From Patescibacteria group bacterium (GTDB taxonomy: Bacteria; Patescibacteriota; Patescibacteriia; SG8-24): 64,000 nt of DNA. The notes beneath the pieces were generated by a model. The model was not told the DNA's origin, ran no database searches, and was given only the letters and a program-made list of their open reading frames with translations. The position numbers were made by a program, and so were the translations under genes. Shown here piece after piece: positions 3,766 through 63,050 of this stretch (its first letter is position 1; each line of letters opens with the position of its first letter). Location of the stretch: assembly GCA_028714475.1 (NCBI GenBank), contig JAQTNC010000003.1, positions 15,596 to 79,595 on the forward strand, in the 5' to 3' direction.

Positions 3766-3802
3766 GCCCTCCCCCGGAGCTTTCTGGGAGAGGGCGGTTT
3801 TG
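3766..3802 (+). terminator. Rho-independent terminator
   Basis: The hairpin gccctccc...gggagagggc is followed by ggtttt. Confidence 0.45.
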
Positions 3803-3962: not shown

Positions 3963-4037
3963 TCAGGAAACAAATTCGTAGATTCGCTCCGTTTAAGTGC
4001 CTTGTATCTTTCTCCTTTTGGACTTCGGCTCCCCTCT

Positions 4038-14400: not shown

Positions 14401-15537
14401 CTTGAAGCGCTCTTCGGAAAGCTGCAGTTCCTCGGCCGCCTTTTTCCGATCGCTGATGTCATGGGCGATGCCGGCCAAACCGCGTACCGTGCCGTCGGCA
14501 TCATGAATCGCCGAGACGACTACCTCGAACCACTTGTCCGAATCGGCAGCCGACCATTGGACTTCCAGTTCGGCACTGGGACGAACGCCGGAGAGCACCT
14601 CGTCAACCGCCTTGGTCAGCGCCTGGCGATCCGCCTCGGCCACGACGGCCGCCATCGGCTGACCTATCATCGCCGAGGCGTCCAGACCGTGCCGCCCCGC
14701 TTGCGGACTCACGTAATCGAAACGTCCGTCCTTACCCAAGGAAAAGATTATGTCCCGCTGGTTCTCAACGTAGGCGCGGTAACGGCGTTCGCTGGCCGCC
14801 AGGTCAGCGGCCTTCTTTTCCACCTCGCGCTCCAAGTGATCGTGAACCGCCGCCAGGCGTTCAGCCATGTCATTGAAGGATTCGGACAAGGTGCCGATCT
14901 CGTCGCTGCCCGGCACCGAAACGCGCGTCGAGAAATCTCCGCCGCCGAACCGTCGCACGCCGGAGGTCAAAGCCACGATCGGCGCGGTCAACTGCCGCAG
15001 AATCAGGAATAACAGCAAGGCCAAGGCGCCGAGTACCGACAGCAGGACGATGACATCAGCGGCCATGATGGTGTATCGGAAGCCCTGCAATTCCTTAAGG
15101 CTAAAACCCATCACGACCTGCCAGGTCTCGGCGCCCACGGTCACCGGCGCGACATACAGGCCGAAGGCCTGGCCCGTTTCCAGCCGAATCTGTTCCCCGG
15201 CGGGTGCAACATCCAAGCCCGGAAAATAATCGACCGCCCGCGTGCCCATGAAATCCGTCCGGTCAGCCAAGCTGATGGTGCCGCTGTCGTTAATAAGCCA
15301 CCAGAACAGCAGATCCTCCCGTTCCTTTAGCCGCTCCAGGCTCTCGAACGGCCACTGGCCGCTTCTTGCGCCAGCCGTCAATTCGCTGGTCAGAAAATCC
15401 CCGGCCAAGCGCACCTCGCGCAAATAGTAGGTTTCCGCCTGATTGGCTTGCCAAGAATAAACCGCCGCCATGACGATAACCGTGACCGCCATGACCGTTA
15501 CGAGAACGGCAAAAAAGATTTTTGTGAGGAGTTTCAC
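11461..15537 (-). CDS. Membrane-anchored multi-PAS sensor histidine kinase (2 TM helices, extracytoplasmic domain, HAMP, about 7 PAS/PAC, HisKA, HATPase_c)
   Basis: 1358 aa. N-terminal TM (MKLLTKIFFAVLVTVMAVTVIV) and a second TM. Repeated PAS signatures, an H-box (...FIQVVSHQLRMPLTSM...) and G1/G2 ATPase boxes at the C-terminus. Confidence 0.9.
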   Translation of the reverse strand: MKLLTKIFFAVLVTVMAVTVIVMAAVYSWQANQAETYYLREVRLAGDFLTSELTAGARSGQWPFESLERLKEREDLLFWWLINDSGTISLADRTDFMGTRAVDYFPGLDVAPAGEQIRLETGQAFGLYVAPVTVGAETWQVVMGFSLKELQGFRYTIMAADVIVLLSVLGALALLLFLILRQLTAPIVALTSGVRRFGGGDFSTRVSVPGSDEIGTLSESFNDMAERLAAVHDHLEREVEKKAADLAASERRYRAYVENQRDIIFSLGKDGRFDYVSPQAGRHGLDASAMIGQPMAAVVAEADRQALTKAVDEVLSGVRPSAELEVQWSAADSDKWFEVVVSAIHDADGTVRGLAGIAHDISDRKKAAEELQLSEERFKAFFEVSPEGLVLTDAHGFIQDTNRLAELLTGYTHGETVGVSIFKIRVLEKLGTAVTTQILTKSVVGQAAGPFDLMLTKQDGSTVPAEIITVPLQLGGQNIVLWTIRDVTDRKRAVLAASESERRYRQIIENATELVYSFDQEKNLTFIGPGAARYGLDAQRLVGRPVKELFRPDDQEQAVAYLDEIMKTGREGKAEFSFRDRAGRDVWLEFVTSPFRGQDGVMTGGQGVAHDVTDWRGIREKLAAGEKRYRSIIETSRDAILEIDPKGTVTYFSPALQRNFGIDSAMTNQSIFNYVHPDDRQRIETGHFRSVMEGDETPSRFRIINDRGEVLWVEASSRVQRDESGQTTGIISVLRDISDRVRTEEGLRQSEAGFRNIISNTPQIAISLFDRQGRLVFWNRAAESLYGYATGEVAGKTVEQLGFEAKTASVFSRTLLGVMKTGQTAGPTERELRTRNGAMRNVLSTVFSVGEGGQQQAVCLDVDVTDLKQTQTALAESQSRYVSLVDSLTVGIYRRTPGLDGKLVECNDAFVRIFDGTDRRQAEGLPAAAIYRDAADNERFEKVMAEKGLIRNFEMPLKTLKGREIWVSVSSVRLKKDGQVFYDGIIEDITERRLAEARLSEARRRYEYLLDNLNAGVFRVTVAAPNRFTLANAALYRILDVPSFEQLSPTSVESYFVDGAEYRRLLGDVKQAGELRNAETRMRTSRGKELWAKLTLFGKTSESGEAVVDGLIEDITEKHQVEEHLRETDRLRHKFIQVVSHQLRMPLTSMRWSLESLLSGEVGELKPEQKNFVQVVLDADTAIIARIREMVAALDIEEGRFNLNKEETGLGDLCTSVMSEVVRAGQAKNVHVEYQPPTVEMPSLLIDAEKIREALRVILDNAITYTPAGGTVKAKLGIVGDRVRFEAADTGIGIPAVEQPRVFGRFYRATNALLARPDASGLGLSIAKHYIEQHGGRIGFTSEEGKGSVFWFDLPLKG

Positions 15538-15547
15538 GGAAGTGCTG

Positions 15548-18500
15548 TCAGTGGTTTTGGGGTTGCATGACGACGTCAGTCAAGGGCCGGTGTTGGGCCG
15601 AATCAACCGGCAACTCGAACCAGAAAGTGCTGCCTTCGCCTTCAGTGCTTTCGAAACCAAGTCGGCCCCCATGGCGTTCAGCGAAATAACGGGCGACGTA
15701 CAGCCCGAGTCCCGATGAATCCGGTTTCATGAGCGGCGCGTTGGTGGCGCGATAGAACCTTTCGCCGATGCGGTGCTGTTCGGCCCGCGGGATGCCAATG
15801 CCTCGGTCGGCCACCTCAAAACGGATGGCTTGAGGCGAAAACGACAGCTTGACGGTGATGTGACCGTTTGACGGCGAATAATCGACGGCGTTTTCGAACA
15901 GGGCGGTCATGGCCAGCCGCACCTTGTCCGGATCGGCGTAAACGACGGGCAACGGCCCGGTCGGTTTCACCAAATCCACCGTCAGGATCTTGGCCGCACA
16001 TCGGCTAGCCAGGGAACGGTGAACCGCTTCCCACAGGCTGTCCGCCGAAAACTCCTCTCGATTCAGGACGGTGCGCCCTTCCTGGATGTCCACCGCCGTC
16101 AGCATTTCGCCGATATTCCTGATGACGTCATTGGTCTCGTCACGAACCACCCGCAGGAATTCCTTCTGCGCCGACGGCAGTTCGCCTATTTGACCCTCAA
16201 GCATGGCCTGGATATTCCAGTTCACTGACGCGAGCGGCATCCGCAACTGTTGGGAAACGAACTGATTAAGCTTGTTCTGCAGCCGCTCGGCGTCGCGCAG
16301 CCGCCCTTCAGCCTGCCGGCTGGCGGTGATGTCCTGAACCAAACCATCCAGATAGGCGTGGCCAGCCGCGTCGGTCTGCCGACTGACCGATAACCTTACC
16401 CAGATCTTCCGCCCCTTGAAGGTCTTCACCATGATTTCCTCGTTCTTGAGTTGGCCTATATCGTTCAGCCTGGCTAGCATCTGGCCCCAAGCGGACTCGT
16501 CGACCCTCAAGTCGTTAAGCGGCAAGGTCAACAGATGTTCCAGCGAATCGACCTCGAGCAGGCTGACGGCCGCCGGATTGGCGTATAGGAACTTCCCCTC
16601 TGGGTCGGCCAAACACCGGAAAACGCCGACCGGCAAGCCGGACAACAACGTCTGACTGCGCTCGCGCTCCTCGGCCAATTGCGTTTCCGTCTGCCGCCGC
16701 TCGGTGATATCCTCGACGATGCAGTCGAAATAACCGCCGCTCGGCCCGCGCCGATACACGGCCGTAACCTCGCACAAAATTGGGCGACCCTTCAGTGTCC
16801 TTAGCTGCAAAGGGTAGTCGCGCAATGTCCCCTTTTCCTGCAAATCCTTCTCAAAAGCCTCACGGTCACGGTCGTTGACATACAGGTCGGCAATGGGATG
16901 ACTGTTCAACTCATCCCGCGAGGCCGCCTCGAACATGACGGCGGCGGCGTCATTCAGATCGACGAACCGGCCTTGCGGCCCGGGCGTCCGGCGATAGACG
17001 GCGACCGCGAGGTTGTCGAGCAGGGAGGCATACCTCTGTTGCGATTCCGCGAGTGCCTCCTCGGCGACACGCCTTTCGGTGACGTCACGCAAGGCCCCGA
17101 TGACCCCGTGCGGCTGGCCGTGCTCGTCCAAACGCTGTCGGACGACGGCCTCAAGCCAAACCGCCCGCTCACCGTCGCGCTTCAGGCGCACGATGACGGG
17201 CTGGCCGGACGGATGGCCGCCGTGAGCCATCTCGTCCCGCATCTGCTTTTCCACCCTTGGCCGGTCCTCGTCGGCGACGAAATCCATCAGGGGACGACCG
17301 ACGGCCTTTTCCGGCATCAAGCCCAAGCGGCTGGCCTGGGGACTGACGTAATCCAGGATGCCTTTCGGGTCAACACTGAAAACCACGTCATAAACGTTCT
17401 CGGCCAACAGGCGATAGCGCCGTTCGCTCTCCGCGAGTGCCTTCTCCGCCTCGTGTCGTTCGGTGATGTCGCGCACGAGCGAGATGACGCCGACCGGACG
17501 ACCCTGCTCGTCGCGCTGGACGCGCCCAATCTCCTCGACCCAGAAAATCTTTCCTTGAGGGCTGACGATGCGCATCTGCATCGGGTGCTGTTCGCCGGTG
17601 GTCAGCGTCATCTGGAGTTCCGCCGCGACCCGCTCCCGATCATCCGGATGGATGACTTCCAGGATGTTCCTCCCGATGTCGCCCGGCCCGTAACCGAACC
17701 GGCTGGCTTGCGGACTCAAGAAGGTGATGCGGCCGGTGCCGTCCACCACGTTCACCACGTCACTGGAGCCTTCGACGATGGCGCGATAACGCGCCTCGCT
17801 TTCCATGAGCGCCCCCTCCGCCAGCTTGCGTTCGGTGATGTCGTGAAGAACGCCGGTCAAGCCGATGATTTTCCCTGCCGGGTCGCGCTGGACGTGGTCC
17901 GACTCTTCCATCCAATGAACGTTGCCGGACCGGTCACGCACGCGGAACTCAATACGCACCTCCTCGCCGGTCTCCATCTCTCTCGTGAACATCGCCGCGA
18001 CATTTTCTGCGTCCTCCGCGACAATCAAGCCAATCTCCATGAACGACCGGCCCACGATCTCCTCCGGCGCCCGGCCTAACCGTCGGCATTGGGGGCTGAC
18101 GTAGGTGACCTTGCCGTCGCGATCAAGCGTAAAGATGATGTCCGGGCTGTTCTCGGCAAAGGCGCGGTAGCGAGCCTCGTTTTCGGCAAGTGCCTTCCCG
18201 GCCTTGACGCGGTCGGTGATGTCGCGGGCTATGCCCAACATCATCCGCCGACCCTGCGCCTCAACGGGATAAGCCGTGATCTCGATGCTGATGATGTCGG
18301 CGTGATTCGGCACCTTCGCGCTGAAAACCGTCGGCGGAACCGGCTGGCCGGACGCAACCATTTGGTTGATGCCTTGCAGGATTTTTTCGTCCTCGGGCGT
18401 AGCCGGATCGGTCTTGGCTGCCACCTGGCCGATCAAATCCTCACGGCTCACGCCGTTCAGGGCCGCCATCTGATAATTAACGTCCACGAAGGCGCCTGTT

Positions 18501-21500
18501 TCCACGTCAATCAAATACATCGCGTCCGGCGCCTTTTCGAAAATGACGCGGAAACGCTCCTCAGAAGTGCGCAAGTGTTCCTCCGCCATCCGGCGCCGGG
18601 TTACGTCGCGCATCACGCCGACAAATCCGGACGCCTGACCGGCGGCGTCGCGCTGAATGGCGACGGACGACTCAACCCAACGGGTGACACCGCTCTTGTC
18701 TCGGACGCGGAAGATGACCGGCGCGGCCGATGGCCCGAGCTCCGGCAAGGAACGCCAATACTCCTCGGCCACCTCGCGATCCTCCGGCAGGATGAGGTCG
18801 AGGAAGCGCTTGCCCAGGCACTCCTTCGCTTCATAACCCAATTGCCGCACTTGCGAAGAGCAATAGGTGAGCCATCCGTCAGGGGCGGCGGAAAAGACGA
18901 TCTCGTTGGAGTTGTCGATGATGGTGCGGAGCCGCTGTTCGTTTTCGGCGACGCGTTCCTCGGTCTGCAGGCGCGCGACGACCCCGCCGAAATTCGCCAC
19001 GTAAGCTTCCAAGGCGGCACGGCTCACGGGCGGGATCGTTTCCGCCTGATGGGATGCGAAAAGACAAACGGCCACCAAGCGCTCGGCGTGCCGCACCGGC
19101 AAGACCGCCGCGCAACGCAACCCCTCCTTCTTCATGACCGGACCAGAGGAACCGGCCGACAAGACGGTCGCCTTCAGGTAGGTCGGCGTTCCTTTGGCAA
19201 CCACGGCCAGCAAATCTGAACCTGCCGAATACTGGTAGACTGCCTGGACAAAGCTGTCGCTAAAGTTCCGATGAACGGTGAGCTTGAGCGAACCGTCCGG
19301 TTCGACCAGATAGACCCCGCCGCAATCCACTCCCTCTGCCTGAACAGCGGCCTCAAGCATGATGATGCCGGCTTCGGCCACGGAAGGCGCCAAGGCCAGG
19401 CGCTGGGCGAGCTCGCGCTCCATGTTGACGAGCCCCTCGACGCGCCGGCGTTCGCTGATGTCGCGCAAGGTGCCGATGATGCCGACCATCTGACCCGTCG
19501 GGCTGAAGCGCGCCTTGACCGTCGCCTCCACCCAAATCGGCTCGCCCTGCTCGTTCACGGCTTGGCCAGTCACGACCACCGGTTTCCGCACTTCGGCCAC
19601 ACGGGCCGGATCGGACACGGACGCGGCCTGTTCCCGGTCCTCCGGCACCAGAATCTCGACGAACGGCCGTCCGACGAACTTTTCCGCCTCCTTGCCGAAG
19701 TGCCGAATCTGCGGGCTGACGTATTCGACGCAACCGTCGGTTCCCGCGACAAAAACGGCGTCACTGATGTTTTCCGAATACTCGCGGTACCGCTGTTCCT
19801 CGTCAGCGATCCGCCTTTCCGCGCGCTTCAGTTCAGTGATGTCAGCGGCATAGACGCGGATGGCATCGGGTTCCGCCAAAACCGTCACCGCTTGCCAATA
19901 ACAGGCGTCGCCCACACATACTTCGCGAGCCGCCTGCCCGCTCGACGGCAACCCCTTGACGAAGGCCTCGATGCCCACGAGGAAAGGATGCCCCGAACCG
20001 CGCGCCGCGAGGTCAGGGAAAAGCGCCTTGGCCGCCGGGTTGGCATAGGTGATCTCAAAATGACGATTACATTCGAGCACCGGGTGCGGATTGCGTTCGG
20101 GAAAAGACGACAGCCGTTCCGTCTCCGCCTCCAGGCGCTTGAATTCCGTCATGTCCACGGCCACGCCGCTCATGCCCACGATCTGATCGCCGCGACGCAA
20201 GGGGGTCGTATAGAGGGCGGCCGTGATGACGTGGCCGTCCTTGCCGACCAACCGGTACTCGTTGGCGTGGTGAGTTTCGCCAGCCAACACCTTGGCGATG
20301 TTGGCGGCGGCACGGGCACGATCTTCCGGCGCCACCAAATCCGTGAGCCTGACGCCGGACCGAAAATCCTCGTCCGTGTAGCCGGACAATTCCTTGGCGC
20401 CGCGGTTCCAAAAGACCACCCGCCCCTCCAAATCCGCCGCGAAGACGATTTGCGGCAGGACGTCCATGGATTCGCGGAAGCGCTGTTCGGTTTCGCGCAC
20501 GGCCGACTCGGACTGCCGTTTGGCCTCGCGCAGGCGCAGGATCGCGATGCCGTAGGCCAAATCGTCTGTCAAAGCCATTAGCAAGCCCTCGCTTTCCTTG
20601 TCAAAGGCGTCAACCTCAGATGAAAAAAACTCGATGACGCCGATCGTGCCTTCGGCCAGACGAAGCGGCAAGGTCAGGCTCGATCGCAGGCCTTGCGCCA
20701 AGGCTGCCTGCCGCCACGGCTGGAACGTCGGCTCGGTAGCCAGGTCTTTCGCCAAGACCGGCAAGCCGGTGCGGATGCACGCCCCGGTCGGGCCGCGACC
20801 GCGCTGCGTGTCCGACCAAACCACCTGCAGCTCCTTCAGGAAATCGCCATGGGTGCCCGCGGAGGCGACTGGCCGTACGGTCTTGACCTCGTCTTGCTCG
20901 GCCAGGCCGACCCAAACCAGTCCGTAATCCCCGAAACGCGCGATGATGCTGCAGACGTCGTTCAGAAGAGCCGGCTCGCTGTCCGCCCTGGCCACGGCCT
21001 CATTGACCGCGACCAGGATGCGCAAGGACTTTTCGTGGCCTTTCGCTTGCCGTTCGAGCAGGCGCCGGTTGGTGATGTCGGAGAAAACCGTCACTACCCC
21101 GACGGTCTTGCCGGCCGCATCGCGCAAGGGGGCGGCGTTGACCGACAACATCTTTCGTTTTTCCGCCACGCGAACGGCGAACTCTACGCCCAGGACCGCT
21201 CGGCCGGTGGTCCGAACGACATTGAAAGGCAAGTGTTCTTCCGGGAACGGCCCGCCAGCCACGTCCTCTATCTGCCATCGGAGGTCATTTTGGGGCCGGC
21301 CAATGAATTCGCTGCGGCTGATGCCCAAGACGCCTTCGCCGGCCTCATTCACGAAGGTGAATCGTCCGGCTTCGTCGATCAGCGCCACACCTTCCGGCAC
21401 CGCCTCGATGATGGTCTTCAGCCGATCCGTCTGCTCGCGATTCAGGCGCTCGATTTCCTGCCGCGCGGCCGCGTCATGGATGATGCCGATGATGAGCGAA

Positions 21501-22612
21501 CGCCCCCCTTCCTCAACGGCCGCCAAATCCACTTCTGCCGGCATGTCCGGCTGGTCGCGGCGGCGATAAGCACTCTCGAAGGAAACGCGGCGCTTTTTCA
21601 ACGCCTCCTTCAGGCGCGCGCCGACCAGCTTGTCGAACGGCGCGGCGACGATGTCCTGAAGGTTCATTTCCATGAGTTCGCCGCGCTCGCGGCCGACCGT
21701 CTTGGTCAGGGCACTGTTCACGAAAACGAACCGGCCGTTCTCGTCCACGACATAAATGGCGTCCGCCGTTGAATCCAACAGCCGCGCCTTCAGTGCCAAT
21801 TCATCAACCAGCCGCTGGCGTTCAGTGACGTCCAAACCGGAACTCAAGATGCCAACGACCTGACCTTGGGCATCCCGCAGAATCGTATTGCGCCAAACCA
21901 ACAGCCGCTCCTCGCCGCCATGCGTCACCACCGGGTTCTCGAATGACGGCTGATTCTCGTCTTTCTCCGGCGGCACGGCCATAAGGCGCCGAAACTCCTT
22001 CGTCACGCGCGGCCGAATCGCCGCCGGCAGAAAACTTTCGAACCAGTCCCGACCGACCGCCTCGGCCTTGCTGACGCCCAGGATGTCCGCGCCCGTCTGG
22101 TTGATGGCCGTGACGCGCCCGCTCGCGTCCAAGGCGACCAGCATGGCGTTCGCCGTATCGAAATAGCGTTCGGCCCTGGTCTTCTCGAGGCTGATGGTTT
22201 CCTCGACTTGCCACCGGTCGGTGATGTCCCTTGAGACGACGCAGGCAAATTCCTGTTCGCCGGCCACGACGTAGCTCATGGTGGATTCGACCGGATAAAT
22301 CGTTCCGTCATGACGGCGATGAAACGATTCCATCACCCGGGACTGCCGATTCCTGATGTCGCCCCAGAACTGCTCCCACGTCTCCTTGGTTGCCCCTTCG
22401 CAGAAATCCGTGAGCCGCATCTTCAAAAGGCGGCTGCGGCCGTAACCGAGCGCCTTGACTGCCGCCTCGTTCACATAGTGGATTTCCGCTGACGCACCGA
22501 CCCAATAAACCTCGTCCGCCGAGGCCTCCAAAGTGGCGAGAGCCAACAAACAATCCTGGGCGGCCGTTCCAGCCGTCTTGTTGGCATTTGGAGCCTCTTT
22601 TTCCTGGACCAT
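15548..22612 (-). CDS. Giant cytoplasmic multi-PAS/GAF sensor histidine kinase (2354 aa; roughly 15 or more PAS/GAF modules, HisKA, HATPase_c)
   Basis: Single uninterrupted 7.06 kb ORF. The C-terminal HisKA/HATPase region is paralogous to that of the upstream kinase (FYRATNAPL...GLGLYVARYF vs FYRATNALL...GLGLSIAKHY). No response regulator is adjacent. Confidence 0.9.
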   Translation of the reverse strand: MVQEKEAPNANKTAGTAAQDCLLALATLEASADEVYWVGASAEIHYVNEAAVKALGYGRSRLLKMRLTDFCEGATKETWEQFWGDIRNRQSRVMESFHRRHDGTIYPVESTMSYVVAGEQEFACVVSRDITDRWQVEETISLEKTRAERYFDTANAMLVALDASGRVTAINQTGADILGVSKAEAVGRDWFESFLPAAIRPRVTKEFRRLMAVPPEKDENQPSFENPVVTHGGEERLLVWRNTILRDAQGQVVGILSSGLDVTERQRLVDELALKARLLDSTADAIYVVDENGRFVFVNSALTKTVGRERGELMEMNLQDIVAAPFDKLVGARLKEALKKRRVSFESAYRRRDQPDMPAEVDLAAVEEGGRSLIIGIIHDAAARQEIERLNREQTDRLKTIIEAVPEGVALIDEAGRFTFVNEAGEGVLGISRSEFIGRPQNDLRWQIEDVAGGPFPEEHLPFNVVRTTGRAVLGVEFAVRVAEKRKMLSVNAAPLRDAAGKTVGVVTVFSDITNRRLLERQAKGHEKSLRILVAVNEAVARADSEPALLNDVCSIIARFGDYGLVWVGLAEQDEVKTVRPVASAGTHGDFLKELQVVWSDTQRGRGPTGACIRTGLPVLAKDLATEPTFQPWRQAALAQGLRSSLTLPLRLAEGTIGVIEFFSSEVDAFDKESEGLLMALTDDLAYGIAILRLREAKRQSESAVRETEQRFRESMDVLPQIVFAADLEGRVVFWNRGAKELSGYTDEDFRSGVRLTDLVAPEDRARAAANIAKVLAGETHHANEYRLVGKDGHVITAALYTTPLRRGDQIVGMSGVAVDMTEFKRLEAETERLSSFPERNPHPVLECNRHFEITYANPAAKALFPDLAARGSGHPFLVGIEAFVKGLPSSGQAAREVCVGDACYWQAVTVLAEPDAIRVYAADITELKRAERRIADEEQRYREYSENISDAVFVAGTDGCVEYVSPQIRHFGKEAEKFVGRPFVEILVPEDREQAASVSDPARVAEVRKPVVVTGQAVNEQGEPIWVEATVKARFSPTGQMVGIIGTLRDISERRRVEGLVNMERELAQRLALAPSVAEAGIIMLEAAVQAEGVDCGGVYLVEPDGSLKLTVHRNFSDSFVQAVYQYSAGSDLLAVVAKGTPTYLKATVLSAGSSGPVMKKEGLRCAAVLPVRHAERLVAVCLFASHQAETIPPVSRAALEAYVANFGGVVARLQTEERVAENEQRLRTIIDNSNEIVFSAAPDGWLTYCSSQVRQLGYEAKECLGKRFLDLILPEDREVAEEYWRSLPELGPSAAPVIFRVRDKSGVTRWVESSVAIQRDAAGQASGFVGVMRDVTRRRMAEEHLRTSEERFRVIFEKAPDAMYLIDVETGAFVDVNYQMAALNGVSREDLIGQVAAKTDPATPEDEKILQGINQMVASGQPVPPTVFSAKVPNHADIISIEITAYPVEAQGRRMMLGIARDITDRVKAGKALAENEARYRAFAENSPDIIFTLDRDGKVTYVSPQCRRLGRAPEEIVGRSFMEIGLIVAEDAENVAAMFTREMETGEEVRIEFRVRDRSGNVHWMEESDHVQRDPAGKIIGLTGVLHDITERKLAEGALMESEARYRAIVEGSSDVVNVVDGTGRITFLSPQASRFGYGPGDIGRNILEVIHPDDRERVAAELQMTLTTGEQHPMQMRIVSPQGKIFWVEEIGRVQRDEQGRPVGVISLVRDITERHEAEKALAESERRYRLLAENVYDVVFSVDPKGILDYVSPQASRLGLMPEKAVGRPLMDFVADEDRPRVEKQMRDEMAHGGHPSGQPVIVRLKRDGERAVWLEAVVRQRLDEHGQPHGVIGALRDVTERRVAEEALAESQQRYASLLDNLAVAVYRRTPGPQGRFVDLNDAAAVMFEAASRDELNSHPIADLYVNDRDREAFEKDLQEKGTLRDYPLQLRTLKGRPILCEVTAVYRRGPSGGYFDCIVEDITERRQTETQLAEERERSQTLLSGLPVGVFRCLADPEGKFLYANPAAVSLLEVDSLEHLLTLPLNDLRVDESAWGQMLARLNDIGQLKNEEIMVKTFKGRKIWVRLSVSRQTDAAGHAYLDGLVQDITASRQAEGRLRDAERLQNKLNQFVSQQLRMPLASVNWNIQAMLEGQIGELPSAQKEFLRVVRDETNDVIRNIGEMLTAVDIQEGRTVLNREEFSADSLWEAVHRSLASRCAAKILTVDLVKPTGPLPVVYADPDKVRLAMTALFENAVDYSPSNGHITVKLSFSPQAIRFEVADRGIGIPRAEQHRIGERFYRATNAPLMKPDSSGLGLYVARYFAERHGGRLGFESTEGEGSTFWFELPVDSAQHRPLTDVVMQPQNH

Positions 22613-24433: not shown

Positions 24434-25345
24434 TCAATTCCCGTTTGGCGAATCATCCGGCGGCGCAACGACCGGTTCGGGTTGTCGGAAAATCGCGGCG
24501 AATCGCCTCATGTCTTCGGTCGCCGACACGGACTGCAGGTGAAAGACGGTCTCGTCAGAATTGTTGACGCCGCCGGGGAAAGCGCGCGCCGCTCGGTAGC
24601 CAGCCGCCTTGACTGCCGCCTCCTCCTCGGGCGACGTCACGCCGAACGGATAAGCGAACAGATCCACGATCACACCCAATTCTCGCTCGAGCGCCGTCTT
24701 GCTGCCGGACACTTCGGCAGCCATGGTTTTCTCGTCCTTGACCTTATGAAGGAACGGGTGCGTCTTTGAATGACAACCGATGGTCATGCCGCGGTCAAGA
24801 AGATCGCGCAACTGATCCCAAGTCATGAAGCGCTTGTCGCGGCCAATGGGGTTCGTGAAGACGAAGAAAGTGGCGTTGTAACCGTATTTCTCCAGGATGG
24901 GGGCGGCGTTCGCATACTGGTTTTCCCAGCCGTCGTCGAGCGTGATGACCACGGCCTTGGGCGGCAACACCTTGGCACCGCTCGTGGCCGCGACAAAGTC
25001 AGTGAGCGAAATGACCGCGTAGCCGTTATCGTGCAGAAAACGCATCTGCGTCTCGAAGGCGGTGACCGTAACGTCATAAACGGATTTCGGCTTGTCCTCG
25101 ACCACCTTGTGATAAACCAAAATTGGCGCGGTCACGGCGGTGCCGGACTTGATAGCCGCGACCAGCTCCACTACTGAAGGCGTCACCGTCACGGTCTCGC
25201 TCACCGGCGGTGGCATTTTGGCTTGATATGACTGGATCCTCTCGACGGCATCCTGCGGATCGGCGGCCGGCCAAAGGATGATGGCCGAGAGTGCCGCCAC
25301 CGCGAAGCTGCCAACGGCGATGACGTAAATCAAGTACCTGGGCAT
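24434..25345 (-). CDS. Polysaccharide deacetylase (NodB-homology domain) with an N-terminal signal anchor
   Basis: 303 aa. Contains ILVYHKV...TLDDGW...IGCHSKTHP motifs of the carbohydrate esterase 4 / NodB domain. Confidence 0.85.
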   Translation of the reverse strand: MPRYLIYVIAVGSFAVAALSAIILWPAADPQDAVERIQSYQAKMPPPVSETVTVTPSVVELVAAIKSGTAVTAPILVYHKVVEDKPKSVYDVTVTAFETQMRFLHDNGYAVISLTDFVAATSGAKVLPPKAVVITLDDGWENQYANAAPILEKYGYNATFFVFTNPIGRDKRFMTWDQLRDLLDRGMTIGCHSKTHPFLHKVKDEKTMAAEVSGSKTALERELGVIVDLFAYPFGVTSPEEEAAVKAAGYRAARAFPGGVNNSDETVFHLQSVSATEDMRRFAAIFRQPEPVVAPPDDSPNGN

Positions 25346-25353
25346 AGGGGTAA

Positions 25354-25409
25354 TGGAGTGCTGGAGTGCTGGAGTGCTGGAGTGCTGGAGTGCTGGAGTG
25401 CTGGAGTGC
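25354..25409. repeat. Perfect tandem repeat (GGAGTGCT)x7, followed downstream (25460..25535) by imperfect complementary CTTCAGCACTTCAGTACT copies
   Basis: Seven identical 8-mers were counted directly, starting 8 bp upstream of the deacetylase start codon. A similar CTGGAGT / TTCAGCACT block lies at 28640..28735. Confidence 0.7.
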
Positions 25410-25540
25410 TGGAGTGCTGGCTAATTATGGTGGGTAAATTTTTTGTCAAGTAATTTTTTCTTCAGCACTTCAGTACTTTTGCACTTATGCACTGACTTCT
25501 TCAGCACTTCAGTACTCCCCAACTTCAGCACTACCATGCT

Positions 25541-29409: not shown

Positions 29410-29906
29410 GTGCGAAGCACACTTTGCGGAATAGATGACTTCATTTCGCGAGGCCGCCCCTCCCGTCGTGACGGGAGGGGCCCGCAGGCCGAGCGCATAC
29501 GATTATTTAGTTGGTGAATGTTTGGTTTCTAGAAGAGGCCGGGCGGGGTCGCCCTTTAAGGCCACTCGACGCCCGCGTCGGCTCGGTCCCCGAGCTTGCC
29601 CTGAACCATTACGGTTCAGGGCTTGTCGAGGGGCGACGCGGGTCGGCGACGTGAGCGACGGCCGCCGCTGGAGCGGCCGAGCGTGCCGTAAGGCACCGGA
29701 CAGAACCTCGCCTCGCTCGGTTCGTCCGATGGTGTGCCTTTCGGCGATCGGTTGCGGCCTTGGCCGCGCCTTTCGGTGTCCGCCCGCGCGCGGGCGGACT
29801 TCGCCGTAAGGGCGACCCCGACGGCCGGACGCCTGTTACTTGTTCTGCCCCTCGACTTCGCTCGGGGAAGAACAGGTATCGCGGGGCGGTGGTCGAAGTG
29901 CACACT
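29410..29906 (+). repeat. R1 structured repeat element, copy A (about 495 bp, with an internal about 100 bp partial duplication)
   Basis: Begins gtgcgaagcacac-tttgcggaa..gacttc..cgcgagg, then a hairpin, then the conserved cccgcaggccgagcgcatacgatt. Ends ...cgcggggcggtggtcgaagtgcacac. Paralogous to elements at 48682, 61614(-) and 62680. Confidence 0.75.
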
Positions 29907-31043: not shown

Positions 31044-31073
31044 GCCCCCAGCATGCTGATGGGGCTTTTTTTG
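31044..31073 (+). terminator. Rho-independent terminator
   Basis: agcccccagcatgctgatggggct followed by ttttttt. Confidence 0.8.
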
Positions 31074-31232
31074 TTCACCTCCGCCAAATACCCCGGGCGT
31101 CAGCCCGGGATTTATGACGCGTGAATCCCCCGAAGTCGCCCGAAGGGTGACGAAGGGGGCATCGGGCTACGGTGAATGAAGTATGAAGGGGTCCTAGATA
31201 CCCCGGGCATGCGCCCGGGGAGTCTTCATATT
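31070..31232 (+). repeat. R2 repeat element, copy b
   Basis: Same architecture as 3800..3962 and about 85% identical to it, except for the variable central hairpin. Confidence 0.6.
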
Positions 31233-32418: not shown

Positions 32419-32523
32419 ATTATTGGTAGCGGCAGGGCTTGTCCCTGCGCCACCATAAACGAACGGCTGGATTGACGTTGCCGAGGCGTTAAGGTGGTGG
32501 CGGGGTAAACCCGCCCGCTACTG
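32405..32523. repeat. Pair of inverted copies of the GTAGCGG-CAGGG-loop-CCCTG-CGCCACC palindromic motif, about 50 bp apart
   Basis: ggtagcggcagggcttgtccctgcgccacc ... ggtggtggcggggtaaacccgcccgctactgg. Confidence 0.6.
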
Positions 32524-32657
32524 GTTATATTTATAGGCAGAATTTGCCTCTGTGCCACTTTATTATACCGCAAATCACCCTGCCGACCACTGGCCACCGC
32601 CAAACGACAACCAAAACGGCGCCCCGTCGGGACGCCGCTGTTCACTAAAATTATTCA

Positions 32658-43617: not shown

Positions 43618-43635
43618 GCTGATGATATAAATTGT

Positions 43636-43735
43636 AGCGGCCGGGCTTGTCCCGGCACCACCTTAGACGAACTAATGAATTTATAAGCGGTGATGCGTTT
43701 TTGGTGGGGCAGGGATAAACCCTGCCGCTACAATT
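43636..43735. repeat. Pair of inverted copies of the palindromic motif (GTAGCGGCCGGGCTTGTCCCGGCACCACC ... GGTGGGGCAGGGATAAACCCTGCCGCTAC), 35 bp apart
   Basis: Direct reading of the sequence. The same motif is found at 455..485 and at 32405/32490. Confidence 0.6.
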
Positions 43736-44596
43736 TTAGATGACCGCGCGGACGGTGATGCCAGCCGGCAGAAGGAAGCCGCGTGGGGATTTTTCCTGCA
43801 GGACCAATTCTACGCTTTCAATGCTCGCGGCATCAGGAAAAACGTCGCGCACGGCCTGCTCGACGGCGATGGCCGGAAAACCCATGGAGTAGGCGTTGAG
43901 CAGAAGCAGGCCGCCGGGTTTCAAGATTATCCGGCACGAATGCAATAGCGGCAGGAGGTCAGACTCAAAACGCCACAGCTCCTTATTCGGTCCGCGCCCA
44001 AACGCGGGTGGATCCATGATGATGGCGTCATAGATTCGTTCACGCCGTGCCTCGCGCATCACGAATGTCGCGGCGTCGTCCTCAATCCACCGGACCGGAC
44101 GGTCGGCAAATCCGGAAAGCTCGGCGTTGTGTTTCGCCGCCGCAATGGCCGGCCGGCTCGCGTCCAGGTGCACGACCGACGCGCCAGCGCTCAAGGCCGC
44201 GAGCGTCGCTCCACCGGTATAGCCGAAAAGATTCAACACCTGCGCCTCCGGCTTCAACCAACCGCGTAGGTACGCCCAGTTCGCCGCCTGTTCAGGAAAA
44301 ACGCCGGTGTGCTTGAAGGACGAGAGGCGCAAGCCGAACTTGAGATTCTCCCAGCGCACGCTCCAGTCATCCGGCGGATTATTGCGCACCTGCCAGGAGC
44401 CTTCCTCGCCGCGCTGTTCGAATCGCGCCACCGCCCGTTCCCAAACTTCCGGCAAACCCGGCGACCACAAAGCATGCGGCTCCGGCCGCGCCACCACGAC
44501 CGCGCCGAACCGTTCGCATTTCATCTGGTCGCCGCTGTCGAGGAGCTCATAGTCCTGCCAGACGGCGATTTCCCTGTTTAATGTCTCACCGGCCAT
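43736..44596 (-). CDS. Class I SAM-dependent rRNA methyltransferase (RlmI/RlmK-like)
   Basis: 286 aa with SAM-binding motifs VLNLFGYTGGA...DPPAF. Confidence 0.8.
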   Translation of the reverse strand: MAGETLNREIAVWQDYELLDSGDQMKCERFGAVVVARPEPHALWSPGLPEVWERAVARFEQRGEEGSWQVRNNPPDDWSVRWENLKFGLRLSSFKHTGVFPEQAANWAYLRGWLKPEAQVLNLFGYTGGATLAALSAGASVVHLDASRPAIAAAKHNAELSGFADRPVRWIEDDAATFVMREARRERIYDAIIMDPPAFGRGPNKELWRFESDLLPLLHSCRIILKPGGLLLLNAYSMGFPAIAVEQAVRDVFPDAASIESVELVLQEKSPRGFLLPAGITVRAVI

Positions 44597-48681: not shown

Positions 48682-48987
48682 GTGCGAAGCACACTATGCG
48701 GAAAAATGACTTCTTATCGCGAGGTCTGGCGACGCCCAGCGTCGCCGCCGCAGGCCGAGCGCGCATACGATTTTTTTTGGGGAGGTGGCGCGGAGGCCGC
48801 CGCCCCTAGCGTCATCTTAGAGCTTCCGTAGGAGCCGTTCGTCTGGAGGCCGCAGGCCGCGACCGGAATGAGGGAGCGGCGCGGCCGCAAGGCGGAGGCG
48901 GCGACACAGGAAGCGACCTGATGACGCGGGGCGGCGGCCGGAAGCGCCCGGCGACCTTCTGGATTCCCCCGCAAAGCGGGACTTCAC
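48682..48987 (+). repeat. R1 structured repeat element, copy C (conserved 5' and 3' modules, divergent middle)
   Basis: Begins gtgcgaagcacac-tatgcggaa..gacttc..cgcgagg, then hairpin ggcgacgcccagcgtcgcc, then gccgcaggccgagcgcgcatacgatt. Ends ...cgcggggcggcggccggaagcgcccggcgaccttctggattccc. Confidence 0.7.
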
Positions 48988-49082
48988 ATCATATTACATT
49001 AAGGTTGGTCGCGGTTTTCGCCGGAATGACGGCATGCGACCACAACGCCAAACCCCCCGCAGTATTGCGGGGGGTTTAAACT

Positions 49083-49785: not shown

Positions 49786-49861
49786 TGGAGCCGACGACCG
49801 GGTTCGAACCGGTGACCTTCTCCTTACCATGGAGATGCTCTACCAGCTGAGCTACGTCGGC
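49786..49861 (-). tRNA. tRNA-Thr (anticodon GGT)
   Basis: GCCGACG-TA-GCTC-AGCTGGTA-GAGC-A-TCTCC-ATGGTAA-GGAGA-AGGTC-ACCGG-TTCGAAC-CCGGT-CGTCGGC-T-CCA. Confidence 0.75.
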
Positions 49862-50241
49862 ACGAGGAAATATGCGGGGAAAGAACTGACTTAGCCCTCG
49901 GTCGTCGGCTCCCTGCGGAAAAATGCGGGGTGCTCTACCAGCTGAGCTACGTCGGCGTGATCGATTTTTTTTACTATGTGCAAGGACCTGGGCTGAACCG
50001 GTGACCTCCCCGCGTTGCCGCGGGGTGCTCTACCAGCTGAGCTACGTCGGCACGAGGAAATATGCGGGGAAAGAACTGACTTAGCCCTCGGTCGTCGGCT
50101 CCCTGCGGAAAAATGCGGGGTGCTCTACCAGCTGAGCTACGTCGGCGTGATCGATTTTTTTTACTATGTGCAAGGACCTGGGCTGAACCGGTGACCTCCC
50201 CGCGTTGCCGCGGGGTGCTCTACCAACTGAGCTACGTCGGC
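49862..50241 (-). repeat. Two tandem 190 bp repeat units (about 99% identical), each carrying two tRNA-Thr 5'-half-like fragments (acceptor + D-arm) joined to non-tRNA hairpins
   Basis: Unit 49861..50050 recurs at 50051..50240 with 1 mismatch. Fragments GCCGACGTAGCTCAGCTGGTAGAGCACC are followed by CCCGCGGCAACGCGGGG or CCGCATTTTTCCGCAGGGAGCCGACGACCG. Confidence 0.8.
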
Positions 50242-61613: not shown

Positions 61614-62000
61614 CACCACCCCCGCGAAAGCGGGGGCCCAGAAACAACACGTGCGCTCCGGCCGCCGCCCCGCGGCATAATGTTCTTCCACGAGCGGAGC
61701 GAAGCGGAGTCGAGGGGCAGAACACGAACAACGTCCGGCCGGTCGGGGCCGCCCTTACGGCACGCTCGCCGCTCCGGCGGCGGCTTCGCTCGACTTCGCT
61801 CGCGATGTCCCCCCGCAGTACTGCGGGGGGCACCAAGCCATCGCTCGCTCGAACGGCCTTAAAGGGCGGCCCCGCCCGACCTCATCCAGAAACTCACCTC
61901 AACCTATAATAGATAAGCGCTCGGCCTGCGGGGGCCGCCAAGCATGGCGGCCCGGCCTCGCGTAATGAAGACATCTTTTCCGCAAGGTGTGCTACGCACG
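61614..62000 (-). repeat. R1 structured repeat element, copy D (inverted orientation; its 5' end faces the low-GC cargo)
   Basis: Reverse complement reads cgtgcgtagcacacc-ttgcggaa..gtcttc..cgcgagg, then hairpin gggccgccatgcttggcggccc, then ccgcaggccgagcgc ... ccccccgcagtactgcgggggg ... gccgcggggcggcggccggagcgc. Confidence 0.7.
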
Positions 62001-62045: not shown

Positions 62046-62633
62046 CTAACAACAATTAGCGAAAAAAAGTTCGTCATCTTCGGCAATCGGCATCCACGGT
62101 CCCAACATTCTCACATCGCCATCTTTAAATGAGACTTCAACATCGATGCCCTGCTTTCTAGTTTTATAAACCAATTTGTCAATCGAAAATATATCCTTTT
62201 CATTTGAACGAATTTCAAGAGGTATATCACTAATGTGCTTTAACAGCCATTCTTGAAAATCAAACCATTTCGGCAATCTAACGATATCATCAGGCAATTT
62301 ATTCAATTTCAATACCGCACATAATTCCCTTCGCAGAGAATATAGGAGCGCGAAATCGGATAATTCTTTTCTTAAGGTCGCGTTTGGCTGCGTTAAATAT
62401 TGTTCAAACTTATCTAGCCAATATCTTGCACAAGACCAACGCAACGCATTATGTACTGACCAATTCCGAAATAGTGTTACTTGTCTAAATTGATCATCGT
62501 CTGATATTCCATCTCTTTCAAACAATCGGCCCAACTGCACCAGTATATATACTACGTCACTTTCACTATCAATATTGCCATGAATCTTTTTAGACAACTT
62601 TTCCAATATTTCATCTGTCATACAATATTGCAT
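62046..62633 (-). CDS. Orphan hypothetical protein in an about 0.7 kb low-GC (about 35-40%) foreign segment
   Basis: 195 aa ORF (MQYCMTDEILEKLSKKIHGN...). Sharp compositional contrast with the high-GC flanks. No recognisable motif. Confidence 0.6.
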   Translation of the reverse strand: MQYCMTDEILEKLSKKIHGNIDSESDVVYILVQLGRLFERDGISDDDQFRQVTLFRNWSVHNALRWSCARYWLDKFEQYLTQPNATLRKELSDFALLYSLRRELCAVLKLNKLPDDIVRLPKWFDFQEWLLKHISDIPLEIRSNEKDIFSIDKLVYKTRKQGIDVEVSFKDGDVRMLGPWMPIAEDDELFFANCC

Positions 62634-62679: not shown

Positions 62680-63050
62680 CTTGCGGACGACTTGTCATCC
62701 TTACGCGAGGCCAAGCGGCGCCTAATGCGCCGCTCCCGCAGGCCGAGCGCATACATTTTAAAGGGGTTGGGGTTGTTTTCAAGGCGAGGCCGGGCGGGGT
62801 CGCCCTTTAAGGCCACTCGACGCCCGCGTCGGCTCGGTTCCCCCGCAGTACTGCGGGGGACGACGCGGGTCGGCGACGTGAGCGAAGGCCGCCGCTGGAG
62901 CGGCCGAGCGTGCCGTAAGGGCGACCCCGCCCGGCCGGACGTCCGTTATTTGTTCTTCCCCTCGACTTAGCTCGGGGCAGAACGCTTGCCGCGGGGCGGC
63001 GGCCGGAAGCGCCGGCTGTTCCTGGATTCCCACCTTCGCGGGAATGGCGT
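62680..63050 (+). repeat. R1 structured repeat element, copy B (5' end faces the low-GC cargo; 3' end abuts the murD stop codon)
   Basis: cttgcggacgacttgtcatccttacgcgagg, then hairpin agcggcgcctaatgcgccgct, then cccgcaggccgagcgcatac ... ccccgcagtactgcgggg ... gccgcggggcggcggccggaagcgccggctgttcctggattccc. Confidence 0.7.

What the first reader, a model, noticed from the sequence alone, without database searches (positions are those of the whole stretch)
29410..29906. R1: novel 350-500 bp structured repeat family (4 copies) with compensatory base changes in a conserved hairpin, suggesting a functional RNA or RNA-like mobile element
Copies lie at 29410..29906, 48682..48987, 61614..62000 (minus) and 62680..63050. 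They share a 5' module (gtgcgaagcacac-NttgcggaaN-gacttc-N-cgcgagg, then a hairpin, then cccgcaggccgagcgcatacgatt) and a 3' module (cgcggggcggcggccggaagcgcc...ttcctggattccc, then a hairpin). The middle region diverges. The first hairpin has four entirely different sequences: cccctcccgtc/gacgggagggg, agcggcgc/gcgccgct, ggcgacg/cgtcgcc and gggccgcca/tggcggccc. Each one is perfectly self-complementary at the same position, directly before the invariant cccgcaggccgagcgc. That is textbook covariation and is not expected from decaying MITE copies. No ORF, reverse transcriptase, transposase or IscB/TnpB gene accompanies them in this window.
Basis: seen in the sequence. Interest (0 to 1): 0.75.

Follow-up and report, generated by a model that had tools for sequence, protein, structure and literature searches.

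The report
Modular hairpin-built intergenic repeat family
Four copies of an undescribed 300-500 bp non-coding repeat, made of interchangeable stem-loop modules behind a strongly conserved 95-base head, lie between housekeeping genes of an uncultured (probably Patescibacteria) bacterium; its folded single strand is clearly under selection, but whether it is an RNA gene family or selfish mosaic DNA is still open.

Summary
Four R1 copies lie at the stated coordinates. Nine more were found in one related MAG and in five metagenome contigs, making 13. No Rfam family matches.

Each copy has three parts:
- a conserved ~95-nt 5' module: a GTGC-GNA-GCAC mini-hairpin, a helix CGC-GA-GGCC/GGCC-GA-GCG with an invariant tandem G.A, a variable cap hairpin (P2), and an invariant CCGCA bulge;
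- an AT-rich linker;
- one of at least three GC-rich multi-helix bodies.

Base-pair covariation is real in P2 and in the commonest body. The + strand folds better in 12 of 13 copies.

The "four entirely different hairpins" are not stepwise covariation. They are wholesale cap swapping in a mosaic element. Modules recombine, and c1 and c4 have 93-96% identical body blocks but unrelated caps. One palindromic cap also recurs in another repeat family and on its own.

The orthologous DedA-SdpI spacer in a relative is empty. About 160 kb of relatives lack R1. No transposase, RT or IscB/TnpB adjoins any copy.

Best reading (0.45): a non-autonomous BIME/RIME/REPIN-like mosaic element whose folded single strand is the selected form. 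Main rival (0.3): a sibling family of structured ncRNA genes. RNA-seq and a whole-genome census would decide.

The parts
29410..29906 (+). R1 copy c1 (497 nt). Parts: box 29410-29422; P1 5' strand CGCGAGGCC 29447-29455; P2 cap 29457-29480; CCCGCA bulge; P1 3' strand about 29487-29495; AT-rich linker about 29497-29535; type-A body with a ~110-nt extra hairpin block (about 29690-29800) and a different H4 cap; truncated 3' module.
   Evidence: (CM 94.7 bits)
48682..48987 (+). R1 copy c2 (about 306 nt). Parts: box 48682-48694; CGCGAGG 48718-48724; P2 cap 48728-48746; CCGAGCG 48755-48761; U-rich linker; body folded as one long imperfect hairpin whose 3' strand is the '3' module' (48925-48947); terminal hairpin CCCGC-AAA-GCGGG 48968-48980.
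   Evidence: 87.1 bits; z = -6.6
61614..62000 (-). R1 copy c3 (about 387 nt, minus strand). Parts: box 61987-61999; CGCGAGG 61956-61962; P2 cap 61933-61952; CCGAGCG 61918-61924; type-A body with H4 cap CCCGCAGTACTGCGGG at 61812-61827; 3' module 61657-61683; terminal hairpin 61618-61638.
   Evidence: I1-I3, I9; 105.3 bits
62679..63050 (+). R1 copy c4 (about 372 nt), which has no box. Parts: CCTTGCGG 62679-62686; CGCGAGG 62704-62710; P2 cap 62714-62734; CCGAGCG 62743-62749; type-A body with H4 cap at 62842-62857; hairpin with loop TCGACTTAGCTC about 62950-62985; 3' module 62990-63012; REP-like terminal hairpin ATTCCC-N8-GGGAAT 63026-63045, which abuts the stop codon of the Mur-ligase-like gene.
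   Evidence: 85.5 bits; z = -4.8
62046..62633 (-). AT-rich orphan ORF (195 aa) lying exactly between the two head-to-head 5' modules of c3 and c4. It is probably a later insertion into an R1 doublet. The doublet in locus L027 has only about 11 nt at this junction.
   Evidence: no Pfam; only itself in 5.8 billion proteins; no PADLOC
49052..49077 (.). Stand-alone copy of the palindromic cap hairpin (CCCCCCGCAGTATTGCGGGGGG), here at the 3' end of the L33 gene. The same cap forms H4 of c3 and c4 and the tip of repeat R2a (3866).

Best explanation
R1 is a lineage-restricted, non-autonomous, dispersed mosaic element in the style of BIME, RIME, REPIN or BOX elements. It is assembled from stem-loop modules, and its folded single strand is the form under selection.

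Shown:
- Each copy has a strongly conserved ~95-nt head. The head contains a GTGC-GNA-GCAC mini-hairpin, a partly conserved GGAAGA...TCTTCC hairpin, a helix P1 with an invariant tandem G.A, an exchangeable GC-rich cap P2, and an invariant CCGCA bulge.
- The head is followed by an AT-rich linker.
- The linker is followed by one of at least three alternative multi-helix bodies, with optional REP-like hairpins at the 3' end.
- The helices keep pairing through compensatory changes.
- Modules and caps are reshuffled between copies.
- Copies are present or absent at orthologous sites.

Inferred:
- Copies spread by copy-and-paste and recombination, using an enzyme encoded elsewhere in the genome. The enzyme would recognise the conserved head as a folded single strand. 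Candidates are HUH, RAYT or IS200-like ssDNA enzymes, or an RNA-level route.
- The terminal caps are replaced by gene conversion or by tiny palindromic units.
- Once inserted, the elements are probably transcribed, mostly as the + strand, from the AT-rich flank or linker or by read-through. They would then behave as stable structured RNA segments next to gene 3' ends.
For: Family and anatomy:
- There are 13 copies with the same head.
- P1 with its tandem G.A is predicted in all 13.
- P2 covaries: 5 of 6 pairs change on both sides, and 0 of 500 shuffles reach this.
- The type-A body has 52 consensus pairs, 15 of them with double changes. 89% of cells are paired, against 40-47% when the partners are slid. 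0 of 500 shuffles reach this.

Single-strand signal:
- The + strand minimum free energy is lower than the reverse strand's in 12 of 13 copies, and G exceeds C in 13 of 13.
- The body consensus energy is -62.5 forward against -53.0 reverse-complement, with 13 G.U cells against 4 A.C cells.

Mosaicism:
- The c3 cap is 93% identical to the L126 cap, but their bodies are 35% identical.
- c1 and c4 share body blocks at 93-96% but have unrelated P2 and H4 caps, and c1 carries a 110-nt nested block.
- The cap CCCCGCAGTACTGCGGGG recurs in c3, c4 and repeat R2a, and once on its own.
- R2 also swaps its cap.
- The 3' hairpin of c4 matches repeats on Azospirillum plasmids.

Patchy presence:
- The DedA-SdpI spacer is 51 bp in L166, against 553 bp with c1 in the window.
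- There are no copies in about 160 kb of relatives at 61-73% protein identity.
- Logan contigs break inside the repeat.

Precedent and context:
- Compensatory change is documented for mobile REP doublets (PMC3116915).
- Neighbouring genes are housekeeping genes, and no consistent orientation rule holds.
Against: - No terminal inverted repeats or target-site duplications were found.
- No transposase was seen near any copy, and the rest of the genome could not be searched.
- Copies within the genome are as divergent as copies between genomes: leader identity is 62-87% within the genome and up to 91% between genomes. So there is no sign of a recent burst.
- The body is a multi-branched fold with conserved unpaired junction bases (UCGGA, GCUYGGU, GUGAGCGAA). 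P1 keeps a non-canonical tandem G.A. Both look more like a functional RNA than like a transposase substrate.
- The head is 84-87% identical between organisms whose ArfB proteins are only 59% identical. Purifying selection on an RNA would also explain this.
Confidence: 0.45

Rival explanations
1. R1 copies are a sibling family of independently transcribed, trans-acting structured non-coding RNAs of 200-500 nt. They would share a promoter-proximal 5' domain and carry different 3' domains. Multiplicity and mosaicism would come from duplication and gene conversion, not transposition.
For: - Covarying helices occur in two domains, with conserved junction nucleotides and an invariant tandem G.A.
- Folding asymmetry and G.U excess favour the + strand.
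- Folding z-scores are -4.8 and -6.6.
- The head is conserved between hosts whose proteins are only 59-73% identical.
- AT-rich, -10-like hexamers lie just upstream of the head. A sigma-70-like site (TTAACA-16-TAATAT) lies in front of c4.
- Paralogues are old rather than near-identical.
Against: - No conserved -35/-10 pair and no conserved terminator were found.
- The head alone shows no strand preference: -17.4 forward against -17.7 reverse.
- Bodies are not homologous across all copies; there are at least three types, and c2's body is one long hairpin.
- Copies carry nested insertions and REP-like pieces shared with unrelated bacteria.
- R1 is absent from about 160 kb of fairly close relatives and from an orthologous spacer.
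- Four copies in 64 kb is a lot for a regulatory sRNA family.
Confidence: 0.3
2. R1 acts purely at the DNA level. It would be palindromic binding or extrusion sites, for example for nucleoid proteins, gyrase, a replication or nicking enzyme, or a dimeric regulator that binds GTGC-N3-GCAC and the TTGCGG...CCGCAA half-sites.
For: - The box GCGNAGC has the signature of the very stable DNA GNA mini-hairpin, with a fully variable middle base in 9 of 10 boxes (the stability of d(GCGAAGC) is from my own knowledge).
- TTGCGG and CCGCA form an invariant inverted pair.
- The recurrent cap is a perfect palindrome including its loop.
- BIMEs are known protein-binding sites, as stated in the abstract of PMC2817692 listed.
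Against: - Strand asymmetry and G.U-only pairs are not expected for double-stranded palindromes.
- Long-range helices closing about 150 nt, and a four-way junction, are implausible as cruciforms.
- The mismatch in P1 is conserved as G.A on both strands rather than being corrected.
Confidence: 0.1
3. The 5' module is a cis-regulatory leader, attenuator or riboswitch that controls what lies downstream. Three mutually exclusive pairings would act as a switch: CUUGCG with CGCGAG, CGCGAGGCC with GGCCGAGCG, and UUGCGG with CCGCAG.
For: - The alternative helices can be drawn from invariant bases.
- A GC-rich P1/P2 stem is followed by a U-rich linker in several copies; c2 has U8.
- Three copies sit upstream of a co-oriented gene: L027-, L133 and L051b.
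Against: - 9-10 of 13 copies point at the 3' end of a convergent gene, not at a downstream ORF.
- The U-run is 4-8 nt from the stem.
- CCGCA is mutated to CCGAA in at least two copies without compensation.
- No covariation can be scored, because the candidate switch bases are invariant.
Confidence: 0.05
4. R1 is a degenerate relative of a known RNA-based mobile or guide system: an ORF-less group II intron, an IscB/TnpB omega-RNA (HEARO), a retron ncRNA or an IS110 bridge RNA.
For: - The element starts with GUGCG, like the group II intron 5' consensus GUGYG (consensus from my own knowledge).
- It is multi-copy and of a similar size.
Against: - No hit to any Rfam group II, HEARO, retron or IS-associated model, even at E <= 10.
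- No domain V-like hairpin is present.
- No RT, IscB, TnpB or recombinase gene lies next to any of the 13 copies.
- Three copies lack the GUGCG box altogether.
Confidence: 0.03

Closest known systems
BIME / RIME (bacterial or Rhizobium-specific intergenic mosaic elements) and REPINs
   Same: All are intergenic, non-coding, GC-rich stem-loop modules combined in variable mosaics. They occur singly and as inverted doublets (c3/c4, L027). Presence among relatives is patchy, arms change in a compensatory way (PMC3116915), and no transposase lies inside the element.
   Different: - R1 is 200-500 nt with a unique ~95-nt head conserved in primary sequence, not a 20-40-nt palindrome.
- No GTAG or CGTC tag was seen.
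- The bodies are multi-branched folds with conserved junction bases and a conserved tandem G.A.
- Copy number and a RAYT partner are unknown.
BOX elements of Streptococcus pneumoniae and ERIC / Correia-type repeats
   Same: They have a modular layout, with a conserved 5' module, variable middle modules and a conserved 3' module. They are predicted to form stable secondary structure, sit near gene ends, and have an unknown mobilising enzyme (own knowledge).
   Different: - There is no sequence similarity.
- R1 has no terminal inverted repeats.
- R1's 3' end is not constant.
- The host is a different phylum.
Small dispersed repeats of cyanobacteria (Elhai et al. 2008, Genome Res 18:1484; listed in the references of PMC3733652; content from my own knowledge)
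   Same: These are very small palindromic units found at the tips of hairpins inside larger repeats and structured RNAs, and they replace one another at the same position. This matches the cap swapping at P2 and H4 and the recurring cap CCCCGCAGTACTGCGGGG.
   Different: Those units are defined 21-27-nt families present in hundreds of copies. Here only one cap recurs (four times in the window); the other caps are unique.
Large multi-copy structured ncRNAs such as HEARO (the IscB omega-RNA), and sibling sRNA families
   Same: They are similar in size, occur in several copies per genome, have covarying helices with conserved loops and junctions, and are G-rich on the folded strand.
   Different: - No Rfam hit.
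- No associated protein gene.
- Bodies are not homologous among all copies.
- No defined promoter or terminator.

Membership tests
Any Rfam 15 RNA family | Match to the family covariance model at or near its gathering score | tested here: not met
   Only four tRNAs pass gathering thresholds in the window. Relaxed scans of c1, c3/c4 and five related loci give only scattered hits far below threshold, with no family recurring.
MITE | Terminal inverted repeats at the two ends of one element | tested here: not met
   Inverted repeats are found only between different copies (c3 against c4 or c1), never between the ends of one copy. The 5' and 3' ends read are unrelated.
MITE | Target-site duplication flanking the element | tested here: not met
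   The flanks of all copies, aligned at the box, show only an AT-rich ...RAY preference and no direct repeat with the 3' flank. The 3' boundary is imprecise, so very short duplications cannot be excluded.
REP / BIME | Unit is a 20-40-nt imperfect palindrome, often with a GTAG or CGTC tag | tested here: inconclusive
   Component hairpins are REP-like: ATTCCC-N8-GGGAAT at 63026, which matches Azospirillum plasmid repeats, and the CCCCGCAGTACTGCGGGG cap. No GTAG or CGTC tag was seen in the sequences read, and the conserved head is not a simple palindrome.
REP / BIME / REPIN | A RAYT (TnpA-REP) gene in the same genome and a high copy number | not testable with these tools
   Only 64 kb of the 111.8-kb contig is available.
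REPIN | Two inverted units separated by a short spacer that pair into one long hairpin | tested here: inconclusive
   Head-to-head doublets exist: c3/c4, with arms 78-95% complementary in blocks, and L027 +/-. However, the partners carry different caps and bodies, and c3/c4 are split by a 680-bp insert.
Group II intron | 5' GUGYG together with a domain V/VI catalytic hairpin and 3' AY | tested here: not met
   GUGCG is present in 10 of 13 copies. No Intron_gpII or D1-D4 model hits even at E <= 10, and no domain V-like hairpin appears in the folds.
IscB/TnpB omega-RNA (HEARO), retron ncRNA, IS110 bridge RNA | The RNA is encoded next to its effector gene (IscB/TnpB, RT, or DEDD recombinase) | tested here: not met
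   Neighbours are DedA, SdpI, L33, a Mur-ligase-like gene, RRF, DnaK/DnaJ, Dut, ValS, ArfB and ABC-F. No Rfam hit.
Riboswitch / 5' leader | Constant position upstream of, and co-oriented with, the regulated gene | tested here: not met
   Only 3 of 13 copies precede a co-oriented ORF. 9-10 of 13 face the 3' end of a convergent gene.
Structured functional RNA (generic) | Helices maintained by compensatory substitutions beyond what shuffled or slid controls give | tested here: met
   P2: 5 of 6 pairs change on both sides. Body: 15 of 52 pairs. 0 of 500 shuffles reach either value, and slid controls give at most 5. Caveats: few sequences, related copies, and the same signal is known for mobile hairpin DNA.
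Structured functional RNA (generic) | Evidence of transcription with defined ends | not testable with these tools
   No expression data are available. Consensus scans give only weak, non-conserved promoter and terminator candidates.

The most novel reading that the evidence does not exclude
R1 is a new class of large, modular, multi-copy structured RNA of Patescibacteria-like bacteria. The invariant 5' domain (mini-hairpin, tandem-G.A helix, CCGCA bulge) would be a protein- or RNA-recognition handle. The interchangeable bodies would be functional payloads. The RNA itself could be the intermediate that spreads the element, which would make it an RNA-structured mobile element with no known enzyme family.
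Probability: 0.25. Interest if true: 0.75.

Novelty: new variant of a known kind. Interest (0 to 1): 0.55.

Why it matters
The host seems to belong to the Patescibacteria (CPR). Proteins identical to the window's carry that name at NCBI. These bacteria have small genomes, and little is known about their regulation.

Here, 2.4% of a 64-kb stretch is occupied by one family of highly structured non-coding elements. The head of the element is conserved better than the neighbouring proteins.

- If the copies are RNA genes, they would be a new and unusually modular ncRNA class in a poorly understood phylum.
- If they are mobile, they would be a mosaic element with no inverted-repeat ends. Its visible cap and module swapping offers a natural system for studying how hairpin-based repeats evolve and which enzyme moves them.

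In practice, the family breaks short-read assemblies: Logan contigs end inside it.

Tried and rejected
1. My first genome-collection pattern (CGCGAGG-N12-42-CCGCAGGCCGAGCGC) was too GC-rich and too loose. Only L027 and L051 were true hits.
2. Viral and phage origin: three viral-contig scans and a phage BLAST found nothing true.
3. Plasmid BLAST matched only the 42-nt REP-like 3' hairpin.
4. Coding potential: the window copies read M-T/S-S-F/Y/L-R-E-A from an ATG or TTG inside the head. However, the frame differs after the cap, and relatives lack the start codon. Rejected on my reading.
5. Sigma-54, sigma-32 and ECF-type promoter readings of the head: the spacings do not fit (reading only). The sigma-70 scan gave non-conserved sites.
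6. Pseudoknot between UUGCGG and CCGCAG: at least two copies have CCGAAG without compensation, so it is unsupported.
7. Synteny of c2 with the L152 copy through a shared ArfB gene: the intervening genes differ, so the copies are not orthologous.
8. ORF195 as cargo of a composite element: it is an orphan with no homologues, so the idea could not be tested.
9. More sequence from the source contig: NCBI contigs are not retrievable through the look-up tool.
10. Literature search for peptide-like translations of the widespread hairpin motifs found nothing.
11. Elhai et al. 2008 is not held in the library.

Full report
**Observation.**
- A MAFFT alignment shows an almost invariant head, a variable middle and a partly shared tail.
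- CCGCAGGCCGAGCGC occurs exactly four times in the window, against 0.9 matches expected at up to 2 mismatches.
- The box GTGCGAAGCACAC is in c1, c2 and c3 but not in c4.
- The 23-mer of the '3' module' is exact only in c2 and c4. c3 has a shorter variant and c1 a truncated one.
- The four quoted hairpins are correct.
- Whole elements fold much better than dinucleotide shuffles: z = -4.8 for c4 and -6.6 for c2.
- Logan contigs from two sequencing runs carry identical fragments and end inside the repeat. The family is therefore real and repeated in that genome.

**Relatives.** My first genome-wide pattern was too loose and wasted that scan.
- BLAST of the returned loci still picked out two contigs of one MAG with four copies: L027, a head-to-head pair, and L051, two copies.
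- A stricter pattern on JGI metagenomes gave five more true copies: L126, L133, L134, L140 and L152.
- Nothing true turned up in viral contigs, phages or plasmids, apart from a 42-nt REP-like match of c4's last hairpin to Azospirillum plasmids.
- No Rfam family matches at gathering or relaxed thresholds.

**Anatomy of the head (about 95 nt; alignment A2).**
- The box is GTGC-GNA-GCAC, and the middle loop base is free to vary.
- YTTGCGGAAGA...TCTTC forms a partly conserved hairpin.
- Helix P1 is CGC-GA-GGCC paired with GGCC-GA-GCG. It is predicted in all 13 copies, with an invariant 2x2 tandem G.A.
- The cap hairpin P2 sits inside P1.
- An invariant unpaired CCGCA lies on the 3' side.
- P1 never varies except for one C-to-U change that keeps a G.U pair.
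- In P2, 5 of 6 shared pairs change on both sides. No shuffle out of 500 reaches this, and slid controls give much less. Clear stepwise compensation is visible among related caps, for example GGCCGCCA/TGGCGGCC against GGCGGCCA/TGGCCGCC against GGCCGACA/TGTCGGCC.
- A covariance model built from ten heads finds only the known copies. It scores 85-105 bits for typical copies and 34-55 bits for two copies with enlarged cap regions. The 13th copy, L051b, which has a much enlarged cap region, was found only by the sequence pattern.

**Bodies.** An AT-rich linker follows the head. After it come at least three unrelated kinds of GC-rich body.
- The commonest kind, type A, is in c1, c3, c4, L027+, L140 and L133.
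- Type A has a consensus fold of 52 pairs in six helices around a multi-way junction.
- Conserved unpaired stretches include UCGGA, GCUYGGU, GUGAGCGAA and a YGGA loop.
- 15 pairs change on both sides. 89% of cells are paired, against 40-47% for slid partners, and 0 of 500 shuffles reach the observed score.

**Which strand folds.**
- The + strand folds more stably than its complement in 12 of 13 copies, and G exceeds C in all 13.
- The type-A consensus energy is -62.5 forward against -53.0 reverse-complement, with 13 G.U cells against 4 A.C cells.
- The head alone shows no preference: -17.4 against -17.7.
- This argues for a single-stranded form, mostly of the + strand. It cannot separate RNA from ssDNA.

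Cap type and body type assort independently.
- The c3 cap is 90-93% identical to the caps of L140 and L126, but the c3 body is 35% identical to that of L126.
- c1 and c4 share body blocks at 93-96% (D13 and D15). Yet their P2 caps and H4 caps are unrelated, and c1 carries an extra ~110-nt block of hairpins inserted at a GUAA loop.
- The H4 cap of c3 and c4, CCCCGCAGTACTGCGGGG, is a perfect palindrome. It also caps a hairpin in an unrelated repeat (R2a at 3866) and stands alone behind the L33 gene (49056).
- The second R2 copy has a different cap at the same place.
- So the 'four entirely different sequences' reflect replacement of terminal caps, not gradual covariation. Comparable behaviour was described for very small dispersed repeats in cyanobacteria (Elhai et al. 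2008; own knowledge; reference listed in PMC3733652).

**Genomic behaviour.**
- Neighbours of all copies are housekeeping genes. No transposase, RT, IscB or TnpB is adjacent.
- No orientation rule relative to genes holds. 9-10 of 13 copies point at the 3' end of a convergent gene, and 3 precede a co-oriented ORF.
- In a relative with 70% identical DedA and the same DedA-SdpI gene pair, the spacer is 51 bp and holds only a terminator. In the window it is 553 bp and contains c1.
- The model finds no copy in about 160 kb from relatives at 61-73% protein identity.
- The head is nevertheless 84-87% identical between the window and L152, whose ArfB proteins are 59% identical.
- c3 and c4 lie head to head around an AT-rich orphan ORF. 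L027 has the same doublet, with one box and only about 11 nt at the junction. The ORF therefore looks like a later insertion.
- No terminal inverted repeats or target duplications were found.

**Host.** Proteins identical to the window's are named 'Patescibacteria group bacterium' at NCBI. ArfB homologues come from Uhrbacteria and Magasanikbacteria-type genomes. The GTDB MAG that holds L027 and L051 is labelled Gammaproteobacteria, so the labels conflict.

**Interpretation.** Selection on a folded single strand is well supported. What the fold is for is not known.
- I favour (0.45) a non-autonomous mosaic repeat of the BIME, RIME or REPIN kind. Its conserved head would be the handle for an enzyme encoded elsewhere, and its caps and bodies would be exchanged by recombination. 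The reasons are the patchy distribution, the empty orthologous site, the module shuffling, the nested blocks, the REP-like parts shared with other bacteria, and the lack of a conserved promoter or terminator. Compensatory change is compatible with this reading (PMC3116915).
- The main rival (0.3) is a sibling family of structured ncRNA genes. It is favoured by the multi-branched body with conserved junction bases, the invariant tandem G.A, the strand asymmetry, the old divergence of paralogues, and the cross-host conservation of the head.
- The two readings are not exclusive. An RNA-structured mobile element remains possible (about 0.25).
- DNA-only palindromes, a cis-regulatory leader, and degenerate group II, omega-RNA or retron relatives are unlikely, for the reasons listed under the rival explanations.

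**Verdict.** R1 is real, undescribed and well structured, so it is worth following up. Interest 0.55; new variant of a known kind.

Noticed in passing
window 3798-3963 and 31069-31231: A second structured repeat family (R2) has two copies, 85-94% identical over about 165 nt and rich in CCCCGGGC...GCCCGGGG hairpins. It has no Rfam hit. One terminal hairpin is CCCCGCAGTACTGCGGGG in one copy and an unrelated TCGCCCGAAGGGTGA in the other. This is the same cap swapping seen in R1.
   Followed up: partly
window 3866, 49056, 61812, 62842: A 16-22-nt perfect or near-perfect palindrome, CCC(CC)GCAGTA(C/T)TGCGGG(GG), recurs four times. It acts as a hairpin cap inside R1 (c3, c4) and inside R2a, and stands alone behind the L33 gene. 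It may be a tiny mobile palindromic unit or a favoured terminator hairpin.
   Followed up: partly
window 455-488, 32426-32461, 32493-32526, 43629-43669, 43696-43736: A third repeat (GGTGGTGCAGGGATAAACCCTGCCGCTAC and its complement) occurs singly and as two inverted doublets with spacers of about 26-31 nt. This layout looks like a REPIN (D17, I4, I5, I11).
   Followed up: no
window 49836-50241 (minus strand), upstream of tRNA-Thr(GGT) at 49786-49861: A 190-nt unit is repeated twice at 100% identity. It contains tRNA-like pseudo-copies: four extra copies of the first ~38 nt of the tRNA-Thr gene, with degenerate or replaced 3' halves. Neither ARAGORN nor Rfam calls them tRNAs.
   Followed up: partly
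window 62046-62633 (-): An AT-rich (about 37% GC) orphan ORF of 195 aa sits in a GC-rich (about 60-65% GC) region. It has no Pfam or PADLOC hit and no homologue other than itself in 5.8 billion proteins. It is inserted exactly between two head-to-head R1 copies.
   Followed up: yes
window 25339-25428 and 25450-25532: An 8-bp tandem repeat (GGAGTGCT) runs for about 11 units. It is followed by a related 8-bp periodic stretch on the other strand pattern (CACTTCAG-like). Both lie in the spacer between two ORFs (D2, D7).
   Followed up: no
window 11461-22612 (-): Two giant ORFs (1358 and 2354 aa) have internal repeats with a 372-384-nt period (D1, D6, D11). They look like arrays of roughly 125-aa, PAS-like sensor modules. 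This is unusual for a genome labelled Patescibacteria.
   Followed up: no
window 56673-56762 and 56857-56946: A 90-nt direct repeat, 98% identical, with copies 184 nt apart in an intergenic region (D8).
   Followed up: no
L168 10640-11040: The spacer after DedA in a relative (67% identity) holds a different mosaic of widespread REP-like units of the GTCATTCCGG...CCGGAATCC and GTCATTGCGAG... types. The orthologous region is therefore a repeat sink in more than one lineage.
   Followed up: no
taxonomy labels of window, L027/L051: Proteins identical to the window's are named 'Patescibacteria group bacterium' at NCBI. The related R1-bearing MAG is labelled 'uncultured Gammaproteobacteria', and the nearest named DedA homologues are Melainabacteria. 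The taxonomic placement of this lineage is inconsistent across sources.
   Followed up: partly
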